Of a DNA stretch of 64,000 nt, positions 28,793 through 31,037 are shown one piece after another. Position 1 is the stretch's first letter. Each line of letters starts with the position of its first letter. Origin of the DNA: Dictyostelium discoideum (lineage: Eukaryota); assembly GCA_000004695.1 (NCBI GenBank), contig CM000152.2, forward strand, positions 4,896,001 to 4,960,000, in the 5' to 3' direction. The notes beneath the pieces were generated by a model. That model searched no databases and was not told where the DNA came from. It saw only the letters and a list, made by a program, of their open reading frames with translations. A program made the translations under genes and the position numbers.

Positions 28793-31037
28793 TTACATTA
28801 ATTTACAATTTTCATCTTTTGAATTTTTATATAATTTATGAGTTATTGAATTACCATTTATATCAATTTTAATAATATTATTTATAAATGATAAACAATT
28901 TGAATTTGAAATATTTTGAGACTGAATTGTAATTAATTCTTTTAAAACTTTTTGTAATTCTAAAGCACCTTTATTTTTAATACCATTACAAGATAAATCT
29001 AAATATTGAAGATGATTATTACTTTTTAAAAGTTTTGAAAAATGTGAACAACCTTTATTCTTTATATCATTATTACTCAAGAATAAATGAGTTAGAGTTG
29101 TATTTGATTTCAATGAATCAGCAATCACTTGAGCACCTTCCTTTTTCATTGAAACGCAATGAAGATATAAATAACGTAATGATTTATTATGTTGTAATGA
29201 TTTTGCCAACTCTAAACAACCTGGAGCACCAAATAAATTAAAACTTAAATTGAGTTCTTTTATAGTTTGATTAAATGATAATGATTCACAAATGATACTT
29301 AACGATTCTTGGTTAATCTGATTCGATGATAAATCTAAAATTTTAATATACTGAGTTTGAAAAATTACATTCCTAATTATAATTGATTCTTGAAATGATA
29401 TCATCGTCCTTCTAAGATATAATGATTTTAATTTTGATTTACTTTTTTCTAATTTTGATACACTACTATTATTGATATTGATATTATTATTGATATTATT
29501 ATTGATATTATTGTTATTGTTATTGTTATTATTGTAATCTAAATTACCCGCTATTGAATTTAAAATTGATTTTACACCAGATAATGATATTTTATTCTCA
29601 GAGATATCAAATGACCTTAAGGTTGTATTATCTCTTAGAAAGTTTTTACCAATATCTTCAGCACCATTTGGATAGATACCATTATTTGAAAGATTTAAAT
29701 TCTTTATATTTGGTGCTTTATTTAAATATTGAATTAAAATTGCTAAACCATCAGTACATAATGAAATATTTGAAAGATTAATAGTTTTCAATGATGTTAA
29801 TCTTGGTAATAAATCCCTAATCAATGCAATACAATCCAATCCTATTCGTTTGTTATTACTTAGATCAAGTATTTTTAAATCTGATTTTTTAAATGGTTTA
29901 TGTGATAATGTAACATTATTTTTAATAATTTCATTACTTTTTTTATTATTTGTTGTTATTGATGAAATTTCTAAATTATTCATATTTTTATTATTTGTTG
30001 TATCTGTTGTAGTTGTTGTTATTGTTGTTGTAGTTGTTGTTGTAGTAATTGTAGCTTCTTCTTGTTGAATTGGATATTTTAAAGAAATATTTGAAAGATT
30101 ATTATAAAGTTTATTTGGTAATGGTAAAGAAGAAGCTGAATTTAATGAATTAAAAGATGATGATGGTGATGATGATTTTAAACTTATTATTATTATTATT
30201 ATTATTATTATTATTATTATTATTATTATTATTATTATTATTATTATTATTATTATTATTATTATTATTATTATTATTATTATTATTATTATTATTATTA
30301 TTATTATTATTTGATGAATTTAAAAATATATTACTATTTCTTTGATTTGATTTTTCATTTTCTTTATTTGTTTCAAGTAAAGTGAAAAATAAAAATTCTA
30401 AACCTAATTTTGTGAAATTATTATTTGATAAATCTAAATGTTCTAAACAATTGAAACAATTTAATTTTAATGATTTTGATAATGTAATTAATTGAGTATC
30501 ATTTAATTGTACACCTCTTAATATTAATTTCTTTATATTATAAATTGTGATAATGTTACTAACCAACTCAATACATCTGTCACCCAACTGAATTGACGTG
30601 ATCTCTAAAGACTCTAATGGGGGTTGATATAGTAATGATGAAATTTTGCAAAAGAAAGGCATTGTTAAACTCGTGAGAATCTTATTCACTGAATCCAATG
30701 TTGACGGTGACTGGATTATAACCTCCTCCAATGACTCATTATGATCCTGTTTTAAAATACTTGATTTCATTAATAATCTCGATAATTCCTCATCACAATT
30801 CAAAAATTTCAATATTTTGATAGTTCTTGGTATTATCTCTCTCCATTGTTTACAAACAATAACACAACTTAAAAATTGTTTACTTGGATAAATACCACCA
30901 TGAACCATTGTTAATATCTTTAATAATACTACTTTTGGTAAACAATTATTTAAATTTATAAATTTTGATATTACTAATGTTGTTGTTGAACTTTTTTTAT
31001 CACCACCACCACTTGAAATAGTTGTAATTTTTGTCAT
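28793..31037 (-). CDS. F-box / leucine-rich-repeat (RNI-like LRR) protein. The N-terminal half (31037-30153) has an F-box followed by LRRs. The C-terminal half (~30300-28796) has RNI-type LRRs. The two halves are in different frames across a coding (AAT)42 tract.
   Basis: The F-box reads 'NNCLPKVVLLKILTMV...VCKQWREII'. The LRR_RI repeats include 'LKELNLSFNLFGAPGCLELAKSLQHNKSLRYLYLHCVSMKKEGAQVIADSLKSNTTLTHLFLSNNDIKNKG'. The downstream frame stays open upstream of the track's first M at 29983 ('KSSSPSSSFNSLNSASSLPLPNKLYNNLSNISLKYPIQQEEATITTT...') all the way into the repeat. This indicates one gene with a +1/-1 frame change at 30150-30310, not two genes. Confidence 0.7.
30185..30310. repeat. 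(TTA)42 on the plus strand, equivalent to (AAT)42 on the minus strand. It is a coding poly-Asn tract and the frameshift site in the F-box/LRR gene.
   Basis: A perfect 126-bp trinucleotide repeat. Confidence 0.9.

What the first reader, a model, noticed from the sequence alone, without database searches (positions are those of the whole stretch)
30150..30310. F-box/LRR gene is split into two reading frames exactly at a perfect (AAT)42 tract
The N-terminal F-box+LRR ORF (31037-30153) terminates 30 nt after the repeat. The C-terminal LRR ORF stays open in a different frame from the repeat to 28796. Plausible coding sequence exists on both sides, with an S/T-rich linker and then RNI-type LRRs. 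No GT...AG intron of workable length and phase bridges the two. The cause is therefore either a sequencing or assembly error of 1 nt in or next to a 126-bp homotrimer repeat, or a real frameshift (pseudogenisation, or repeat-length polymorphism switching the frame).
Basis: seen in the sequence. Interest (0 to 1): 0.5.

Follow-up and report, generated by a model that had tools for sequence, protein, structure and literature searches.

The report
Real frameshift in lab-strain F-box/LRR gene
A conserved Dictyostelium gene for an F-box-like, leucine-rich-repeat protein is truly broken by a frameshift next to a long AAT repeat in the standard laboratory strain lineage, whereas eight related genomes keep it intact; this is not a sequencing error, and it is an ordinary kind of strain-specific gene defect.

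Summary
The repeat and the frame change are real. A perfect (AAT)42 lies at 30311..30186 on the minus strand. Upstream, a 295-codon ORF (F-box-like plus LRR) ends 11 codons after the repeat. Downstream, an RNI-type LRR reading frame continues in frame +1 to 28796.

Eight related genomes carry one uninterrupted single-exon ORF of 725-848 aa here: D. firmibasis, two divergent D. discoideum, two D. cf. discoideum, D. dimigraforme and two D. citrinum. Between conserved anchors their linker is always a multiple of 3 nt (150-270). In the window it is 190 nt (3n+1), and a conserved unique block (..SSSSMGGGGANTSFI) is missing.

An independent de novo assembly (GCA_054883475.1, inferred to be AX2-214) matches the gene 2245/2245, yet differs from the window at 26 nearby sites. 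It also corrects an obvious error in the neighbouring gene. A 1-nt sequencing error is therefore unlikely.

GT30334..AG30136 (199 nt, 92% AT) restores the frame, and the GenBank model of that assembly uses it (681 aa). It removes sequence that all relatives translate, so it is probably an annotation artefact masking the lesion.

Best reading: a recent, lineage-specific truncating allele. Copy-number change of a 3-nt unit cannot shift the frame.

The parts
30150..31037 (-). Frame-0 ORF of 295 codons plus stop. It contains the F-box-like motif, a first LRR block, N42 and an 11-residue out-of-frame tail (KFKIIITIIIF), ending at a premature TAA (30152..30150).
30831..30944 (-). F-box-like motif (residues 32-69, LPKVVLLKILTMV...CKQWREII). 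The Pfam match is below threshold.
   Evidence: PF12937, E=1.1e-4, 22.4 bits against a cut-off of 24.3. The same sub-threshold match appears in all 8 orthologues. No F-box chain is found in the PDB with the N-terminal profile.
30186..30311 (-). Perfect (AAT)42 tract, read as Asn42 in frame 0. It occupies the place of an interrupted poly-Asn stretch plus a conserved unique block in relatives.
30182..30185 (-). Frame junction. One extra A (30185) lies between the last AAT and the AGT (30184..30182) that starts the conserved ..SLKSSSPSSSFNSLNSA.. reading. This is where the spacing becomes 3n+1. The position of the lesion within the tract is not resolvable.
   Evidence: Relatives read TTT ATA AGT (C/T)TA AAA TCA at this point. 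A 44-nt deletion between ATA microhomologies from an L002-like ancestor would give exactly this junction (inference).
28793..30184 (-). Frame +1 continuation: S/T-rich linker, then RNI-type LRR domain (LRR_6 repeats), with the conserved stop at 28795..28793.
   Evidence: best PDB relatives are LRRC34, ribonuclease inhibitor and NLRP LRRs; identical to orthologues in the structured parts.
30136..30334 (-). Cryptic GT..AG segment of 199 nt, 92% A+T (GTAATATA...AAATTCAG). Removing it restores the frame and gives 681 aa. The gene model of GCA_054883475.1 uses it as an intron. It is probably an annotation artefact.
   Evidence: The same two sites are coding sequence in 6 of 8 intact alleles.
29981..29983 (-). 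Internal ATG that heads the 396-codon ORF listed mechanically. It is an ordinary internal Met, conserved only within the discoideum clade, and not a demonstrated start codon.

Best explanation
The two ORFs are the halves of one ancestral single-exon gene. It encodes a protein of about 735-750 aa with an N-terminal F-box-like motif, a short LRR block, a low-complexity linker and a large RNI-type LRR domain.

In the NC4-derived laboratory lineage of Dictyostelium discoideum, the first linker carries a genuine lesion. This lineage comprises the window, which encodes the AX4 La protein exactly, and an independent assembly inferred to be AX2-214. The conserved unique block (AGT..ATG GGA GGT GGT GGT GCG AAT ACA AGT TTT AT; ..SSSSMGGGGANTSFI) is gone. 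The region is now a pure (AAT)42 tract. The distance between conserved anchors is 190 nt, which is 3n+1.

The simplest origin (inferred) has two steps in unknown order. One is a deletion of 3n+2 nt, 44 nt if the ancestor resembled L002, between ATA microhomologies. The other is expansion and purification of the AAT tract.

Translation from the ATG therefore gives a 295-aa product: F-box-like motif, first LRRs, Asn42 and 11 wrong-frame residues. This product lacks the presumed substrate-binding LRR domain, so the allele is a recent truncating, probably loss-of-function, allele. The 199-nt 'intron' in the public 681-aa model is most likely a frameshift-masking artefact of gene prediction.

Shown here: the lesion, its presence in two assemblies, and intact orthologues. 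Inferred: how the lesion arose, the absence of splicing, and loss of function.
For: (1) One gene. Eight related genomes have one continuous single-exon ORF that is collinear with both halves. Both halves are under strong purifying selection, with dN/dS of 0.05-0.22.

(2) The lesion. The anchor-to-anchor distance is 190 nt (3n+1) in the window and L007. It is 150-270 nt, always a multiple of 3, in the other eight. The conserved block is absent.

(3) Not a sequencing error. L007 (GCA_054883475.1, 6.43-Mb chromosome) is 2245/2245 identical across the gene, yet shows 26 differences elsewhere in 13 kb. Nearly all substitutions are private to the window. L007 also repairs a pair of compensating indels that put two stop codons into an ankyrin repeat of the neighbouring gene in the window.

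(4) Source of the assemblies. They are de novo Nanopore plus Illumina assemblies from PRJNA1300491, which include AX2-214 (PMC12745789). The window encodes the AX4 La protein exactly.

(5) The lesion is recent. Window-private codon changes outside the linker are 10 synonymous and 0 non-synonymous. About 20 non-synonymous changes would be expected in the C half if it had been neutral along the whole branch. Inactivation is therefore confined to less than 15% of the branch.

(6) The intron is doubtful. It would remove SNIFLNS.. and ..SLKSSSPSSSFNSLNSA, which all relatives translate. Both splice sites are ancestral coding sequence. Comparable cryptic GTA..AG segments occur 47 times in 20.8 kb of long ORFs in this window. 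In the Dictyostelium kinome study, predicted introns masking frameshifts in 15 pseudogenes were disproved by RT-PCR or ESTs wherever these were available (PMC1420674).
Against: No transcript data could be reached, so splicing of the 199-nt segment is not excluded. Its GT-AG ends, length and 8% G+C fall within the range of conserved introns in neighbouring genes. These use GTAAGT, GTATGT, GTAAGA, GTTTGT and GTAATT donors, TAG, AAG or CAG acceptors, lengths of 79-354 nt and 84-97% A+T.

The complete lack of degeneration in the C half is equally what a still-functional gene would show.

The identity of L007 as AX2-214 is inferred by elimination, not read from the record. Loss of function of the truncated protein is also inferred. 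The AX4 curated annotation could not be retrieved.
Confidence: 0.62

Rival explanations
1. Rescue by splicing. In this lineage the damaged linker is removed as a 199-nt intron (GT 30334 .. AG 30136). This yields an in-frame 681-aa F-box-like/LRR protein without the linker, so a coding microsatellite linker would have become an intron.
For: The segment is GT-AG and 199 nt (3n+1), exactly compensating the lesion. The lesion removed the only G+C-rich block, raising A+T from 80-84% in intact alleles to 92%. Donors such as GTAATT and acceptors such as TTCAG occur in conserved introns nearby. The GenBank model of GCA_054883475.1 has exactly this structure. The C half shows 0 non-synonymous private changes.
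Against: The segment is translated in all 8 relatives, and both sites are ancestral codons (AAT A|GT AAT; TCA G|CT). GTAATA lacks both the +5 G and the +6 T seen in most local donors. Similar cryptic pairs are common in AT-rich coding sequence, and a phase match has a 1 in 3 chance. In Dictyostelium, frameshift-masking predicted introns have been disproved experimentally (PMC1420674). Other long AAT tracts, such as (AAT)49 at 19839..19985, are read in frame as exon. There is no transcript evidence.
Confidence: 0.13
2. Sequencing or assembly error. The true sequence has a 3n spacing, and both assemblies mis-called the tract or a neighbouring base.
For: Long simple repeats are error-prone. The window does carry likely base-call errors a few kb away.
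Against: Two assemblies built from different strains and different technologies agree base for base over 2245 nt, and over 7 kb around the gene. They disagree elsewhere. The difference from intact alleles is the loss of a 45-nt unique block, not one base. The assemblies in PRJNA1300491 are described as de novo.
Confidence: 0.05
3. Gene fission. The two ORFs now act as two separate products: a 295-aa F-box-like protein, and an LRR protein started at the internal ATG 29983 or by re-initiation.
For: Both ORFs are fully open. An ATG lies 167 nt after the premature stop.
Against: The 167 nt between them is coding-like (poly-Thr codons) and homologous to translated linker in relatives. It does not resemble a Dictyostelium intergenic or promoter region. 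The Met is not conserved outside the discoideum clade. There is no evidence of a second transcript.
Confidence: 0.05
4. Recoding. Ribosomes shift +1 near AAA-A (30177..30174) to read through.
For: A +1 slip of tRNA-Lys on AAA A would enter the correct frame (reading of the sequence).
Against: There is no stimulatory element. No relative needs such a shift, since all have a continuous frame. The site is a by-product of a recent lesion.
Confidence: 0.02

Closest known systems
Dictyostelium pseudogenes whose frameshifts are masked by predicted introns (protein-kinase pseudogenes, Goldberg et al. 2006, PMC1420674)
   Same: A frameshift lies inside otherwise conserved coding sequence. The automated gene model hides it with an intron that actually encodes the missing homologous sequence. 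In both cases the organism is the AX4-lineage genome.
   Different: Here the parent gene is not a decayed paralogue copy. It is the single orthologue, intact in 8 related genomes and showing no other damage. The masking segment also passes the usual plausibility filters (under 15% G+C, 60-250 nt), so it is harder to dismiss without RNA data.
F-box/LRR (FBXL-type) substrate receptors of SCF ubiquitin ligases
   Same: An N-terminal LPxxhhxxIhxxh...W motif scored as F-box-like, followed by leucine-rich repeats. UniRef names the D. firmibasis orthologue 'F-box domain-containing protein'.
   Different: The F-box match is below Pfam's cut-off in all 9 sequences. The N-terminal profile finds no F-box chain in the PDB. 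The LRRs are of the RNI/LRR_6 type, closest to LRRC34, ribonuclease inhibitor and NLRP, rather than the cysteine-containing FBXL type. Skp1 binding has not been tested.
Coding trinucleotide (AAT, poly-Asn) repeats of D. discoideum
   Same: A perfect AAT tract inside a coding linker, hypervariable in length between strains and species.
   Different: Such tracts normally vary by whole codons and stay in frame. An example is (CAA)26(AAT)49 inside the neighbouring gene. Here the tract abuts a non-3n deletion, so it marks the lesion rather than causing it by unit slippage.
Intronization of exonic sequence (origin of introns from coding sequence)
   Same: If the 199-nt segment is spliced, former coding sequence with pre-existing cryptic GT/AG sites would have become an intron after a disabling mutation.
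   Different: There is no transcript evidence. The segment is exon in every relative. This is only the non-excluded novel reading.

Membership tests
F-box protein | F-box domain scoring above the curated family threshold | tested here: inconclusive
   PF12937 F-box-like scores 20.9-22.4 bits (E 1e-4 to 3e-4) in the window and all 8 orthologues, below the 24.3-bit cut-off. The motif is invariant across orthologues.
F-box protein | F-box three-helix fold, or similarity to solved F-box chains | tested here: inconclusive
   The N-terminal profile gives no F-box hit in the PDB at E<=10. The AlphaFold2 model of residues 1-234 has mean pLDDT 43.5, with residues 1-140 below 50, so it is unusable.
F-box protein | Binding to Skp1 / incorporation into an SCF complex | not testable with these tools
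   Needs pull-down or two-hybrid experiments.
RNI-type leucine-rich repeat protein | Multiple LRR_6 (28-29-residue) repeats and similarity to ribonuclease-inhibitor-like structures | tested here: met
   LRR_6 E=3.4e-22 for the C half and 1e-23 to 3e-26 in orthologues. PDB profile hits: LRRC34 2.4e-33, RNH1 8e-22, NLRP LRRs.
Sequencing/assembly artefact | Lesion absent from an independent assembly of the same lineage | tested here: not met
   L007 is 2245/2245 identical over the gene and differs at 26 sites elsewhere. A true artefact 4 kb away is corrected in L007.
Pseudogene / truncating allele | Disabling lesion within a conserved ORF, relative to intact orthologues | tested here: met
   3n+1 spacing and a premature stop at 30152..30150. 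The 8 orthologues are continuous.
Pseudogene / truncating allele | Relaxed constraint or further decay downstream of the lesion | tested here: not met
   0 non-synonymous against 5 synonymous private changes in the C half, and no further stops. This is compatible only with a very recent lesion or a still-functional gene.
Pseudogene / truncating allele | No full-length protein made | not testable with these tools
   Needs cDNA or protein data.
Spliceosomal intron (30334..30136) | GT-AG ends, with length and composition typical of the genome, restoring the ORF | tested here: met
   GTAATATA..AAATTCAG, 199 nt, 92% A+T, giving 681 aa with no stop. Local conserved introns are 79-354 nt and 84-97% A+T.
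Spliceosomal intron (30334..30136) | Intron at the same position in relatives, or sequence not conserved as coding | tested here: not met
   All 8 relatives read straight through in frame. Conserved peptides lie inside the segment.
Spliceosomal intron (30334..30136) | Spliced junction observed in RNA | not testable with these tools
   No D. discoideum transcript-derived protein for this gene was in the searchable collections.

The most novel reading that the evidence does not exclude
The lesion created an intron. The frameshifting deletion removed the only G+C-rich block of the linker. That left a 199-nt, 92% A+T segment between pre-existing cryptic GTAATA and TTCAG sites. This segment is now spliced out, restoring the frame. 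That would be a within-species, datable case of intron birth by intronization of a coding microsatellite linker.
Probability: 0.12. Interest if true: 0.65.

Novelty: new member of a known kind. Interest (0 to 1): 0.25.

Why it matters
The practical consequences are modest.

(1) The standard laboratory backgrounds (AX4 and, by inference, AX2) probably lack the full-length form of an F-box-like/LRR protein. This protein is strongly conserved across the group-4 species sampled here (D. discoideum to D. firmibasis), with dN/dS of 0.05-0.2. Phenotypes linked to this gene, and comparisons with wild isolates, should take that into account.

(2) The public 681-aa gene model for this locus is probably not a real protein. 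It omits 66 residues, including motifs conserved in all relatives.

(3) This is a clean worked example of a general point. A frame change at a trinucleotide repeat cannot come from unit slippage. It points instead to a flanking non-3n deletion.

(4) It also shows that a second assembly can separate real lesions from reference errors. A genuine reference error sits 4 kb away, at 34811..34847.

Only if the 199-nt segment proves to be spliced would the locus be of wider evolutionary interest.

Tried and rejected
(a) Looking up the curated annotation. Exact look-ups found nothing for the 295-aa ORF, the 396-aa ORF, the 681-aa spliced product and the 734-aa L002 orthologue. The homology search returned only the D. 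firmibasis orthologue, although seven other annotated orthologues exist. Absence from that index is therefore uninformative, and the AX4 gene model remains unknown to me.

(b) Transcript evidence. No Logan or RNA-derived protein for this gene turned up.

(c) F-box fold. The N-terminal profile against the PDB gave nothing relevant.

(d) The GT30334..AG30183 pair, which brackets the repeat tightly (152 nt), is out of phase and gives an immediate stop (worked by hand from the sequence read; absent from the in-phase list).

(e) Repeat-length polymorphism as a frame switch was rejected on arithmetic grounds.

(f) +1 ribosomal frameshifting and transcriptional slippage were rejected. The A run is only 4 nt, no relative needs recoding, and trinucleotide slippage keeps the frame.

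(g) Transposon or tRNA explanations for the 7.4-kb extra DNA downstream were checked. There are no tRNAs between 15000 and 40000 and only small ORFs.

(h) Literature searches for the annotation pipeline of PRJNA1300491 gave no methods text and no supplements.

Full report
**1. What is in the sequence**

On the minus strand the window holds a perfect (AAT)42 at 30311..30186. Tandem Repeats Finder reports 30184..30311 with 42.7 copies, 100% matches and score 256 (regex check).

An ORF starts at ATG 31037, reads the tract as Asn42, and runs 11 more codons (KFKIIITIIIF). It stops at TAA 30152..30150.

The +1 frame is open from 30319 to 28796. From the end of the tract it reads SLKSSSPSSSFNSLNSASSLPLPNK.., then a Thr-rich stretch, then LRRs.

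Pfam gives the following:
- N part: F-box-like at E=1.1e-4, 22.4 bits (cut-off 24.3), plus one LRR_6 repeat.
- C part: LRR_6 at E=3.4e-22.

The window is 77.6% A+T and contains eight perfect AAT tracts of at least 20 units. The repeat as such is ordinary for this genome.

**2.

Enumerating GT..AG pairs that join frame 0 to frame +1 without a stop gives 59 candidates. The best is GT 30334 .. AG 30136: 199 nt, 92% A+T, GTAATATA...AAATTCAG. It removes the whole repeat and yields a 681-aa product.

**3. Relatives show one gene and no intron**

The homology search found a 725-aa D. firmibasis protein that is single-exon. Using the conserved La gene immediately upstream as a handle, I fetched the same locus from seven more genomes.

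All eight relatives have one uninterrupted ORF collinear with both halves:

| Locus | Organism | ORF |
|---|---|---|
| L001 | D. firmibasis | 725 aa |
| L002 | D. discoideum | 734 aa |
| L008 | D. discoideum | 737 aa |
| L006 | D. cf. discoideum | 748 aa |
| L009 | D. cf. discoideum | 779 aa |
| L003 | D. dimigraforme | 794 aa |
| L004 | D. citrinum | 848 aa |
| L005 | D. citrinum | 825 aa |

Each has a poly-Asn stretch at the same place. It is followed by a conserved unique block, S(S/T)SSMGGGGANTSF(I/L)SLKS..SSSFNSLNSA.

I measured the distance between two conserved anchors, AGTAATATATTTTTAAAT and TTACCNTTACC. In the eight relatives it is 150-270 nt and always a multiple of 3. In the window it is 190 nt, which is 3n+1.

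The window lacks the block AGT..ATG GGA GGT GGT GGT GCG AAT ACA AGT TTT AT. Its tract runs (AAT)42 + A + AGT TTA AAA TCA. From an L002-like ancestor, a 44-nt deletion between ATA microhomologies would give exactly this junction. That path is inference.

**4. It is not a sequencing error**

The cluster of La proteins contains the AX4 protein (EAL66643.1 / XP_640625.1), and the window encodes it exactly. The same La protein is also carried by a second assembly, GCA_054883475.1 (CM142509.1, 6.43 Mb; locus L007).

L007 aligns to window 38647..25454 at 99.64% identity with 26 differences. It is therefore not a copy of the window. Over the gene, however, it is 2245/2245 identical, including (AAT)42 and the 3n+1 spacing.

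Almost all substitution differences are private to the window, with L007 agreeing with the more distant strains. One of them is an obvious error in the window. Two compensating 1-nt indels at 34811..34847 put two stop codons inside a conserved ankyrin repeat of the neighbouring gene. L007, L002 and L001 read that repeat cleanly. So L007 repairs real reference errors but keeps this frameshift.

These assemblies come from PRJNA1300491 (Holland et al. 2025, PMC12745789). They are de novo Nanopore plus Illumina assemblies of nine wild isolates plus the lab strain AX2-214. By elimination L007 is AX2-214, which is an inference.

From established strain history, AX2 and AX3/AX4 are independent axenic derivatives of NC4. 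The allele was therefore probably already present in NC4.

**5. How old is the lesion, and does the gene matter?**

Pairwise dN/dS is 0.05-0.22 for both halves, so the gene is under strong purifying selection in the clade.

On the window's own branch, outside the linker, there are 10 synonymous and 0 non-synonymous private changes. Five of the synonymous changes, and none of the non-synonymous, fall in the C half. If the C half had been neutral along the whole branch, about 20 non-synonymous changes would be expected. Inactivation is therefore confined to less than 15% of that branch. Either the lesion is very recent or the gene still works.

**6. Is the 199-nt segment an intron?**

The gene model of L007 spans 2245 nt for a 681-aa product. 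The only GT-AG solution is exactly 30334..30136.

In favour:
- Conserved introns in neighbouring genes use the donors GTAAGT, GTATGT, GTAAGA, GTTTGT and GTAATT, and TAG, AAG or CAG acceptors. They are 79-354 nt long and 84-97% A+T. The candidate is not out of range.
- The lesion raised the segment's A+T from 80-84% in intact alleles to 92%.

Against:
- The segment is translated in every relative and contains conserved peptides.
- Both sites are ancestral codons, present in 6 of 8 intact alleles.
- Comparable cryptic GTA..AG segments occur 47 times in 20.8 kb of long ORFs in this window, and a phase match has a 1 in 3 chance.
- A longer perfect tract, (CAA)26(AAT)49, is read in frame as exon in the next gene but one.
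[quoted passage not shown] I put genuine splicing at about 0.12-0.13.

**7. Conclusion and comparison with known things**

The best-supported account is a real, recent, lineage-specific truncating allele of a conserved single-exon gene. The most probable outcome is a 295-aa product without the RNI-type LRR domain.

The gene works like an F-box/LRR substrate receptor on paper, but membership of the F-box family is not established:
- The Pfam match is sub-threshold in all nine sequences.
- The N-terminal profile finds no F-box in the PDB.
- The structure model was unusable.

The LRR domain is clearly of the RNI/LRR_6 type, with LRRC34, RNH1 and NLRP as the best solved relatives.

The phenomenon itself, a frameshifted Dictyostelium gene masked by a predicted intron, is a known kind. 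This is a new instance. It is distinguished by being the sole orthologue, otherwise undamaged, and by a masking segment that passes the usual intron filters.

**8. Rejected or limited**

Copy-number change of a 3-nt unit cannot alter the frame. Recoding and gene fission have no support.

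Noticed in passing
window 34811-34847 (+ strand), and more widely 33460-37841: Two compensating 1-nt indels 35 nt apart put 12 wrong-frame codons with two stops into a conserved ankyrin repeat of the Ank/RCC1 gene (TPLHVAGYYK**NIDRGFVKANANAG). L007, L002 and L001 all read TPLHVAVITNNKTLTEALVKANANAG. About 20 further substitutions or indels private to the window cluster in the same 4.4 kb. These are probable base-call errors in the window's assembly.
   Followed up: partly
window 21400-28790: About 7.4 kb separates the end of the F-box/LRR gene from the next conserved gene (abhydrolase-like, 21348..20410), against about 280 nt in D. 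firmibasis. It holds only small ORFs, for example a Cys-rich ORF with a signal-peptide-like start at 24824..25042. It also contains a 79%-identical local duplication (L007:10453-11072 against window 25300-24675). No tRNA genes were found.
   Followed up: partly
window 19742-19985: (CAA)26 is followed closely by (AAT)49, the longest perfect AAT tract in the window. It lies in frame inside an exon of the Guanylate_cyc_2-like gene: flanking homology to D. firmibasis is in the same frame on both sides. This shows that such tracts are normally translated.
   Followed up: partly
L008:7589-10224: The deposited gene model for the intact D. discoideum orthologue (804 aa) reads past the conserved ..ENCKLM stop by means of a 221-nt 3' 'intron'. 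The plain ORF is 737 aa. This is probably another annotation artefact in the same set of genomes.
   Followed up: partly
orthologue alignment; L004/L005 linker 2, L009 linkers 2 and 3: The protein has three hypervariable low-complexity linkers between invariant blocks. D. citrinum carries roughly 80-90 consecutive Asn in linker 2. One D. cf. discoideum strain has a run of about 20 Gln and a run of about 50 Asn. All of these are in frame.
   Followed up: no
protein search index (against 18-21, 32, 38, 39): Seven annotated orthologues of this gene exist on NCBI assemblies, but neither the homology search nor the exact look-up returns them. Their La neighbours from the same assemblies are indexed. 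Absence of a hit for this family is therefore not evidence of absence.
   Followed up: yes
window 32404-32512 (minus strand): The La gene (ATG 32627) has one 109-nt GTAAGT...TTTTAG intron. With that intron removed, the window encodes the AX4 La protein (EAL66643.1) exactly. The intron's poly-T run differs in length between the window and L007.
   Followed up: yes
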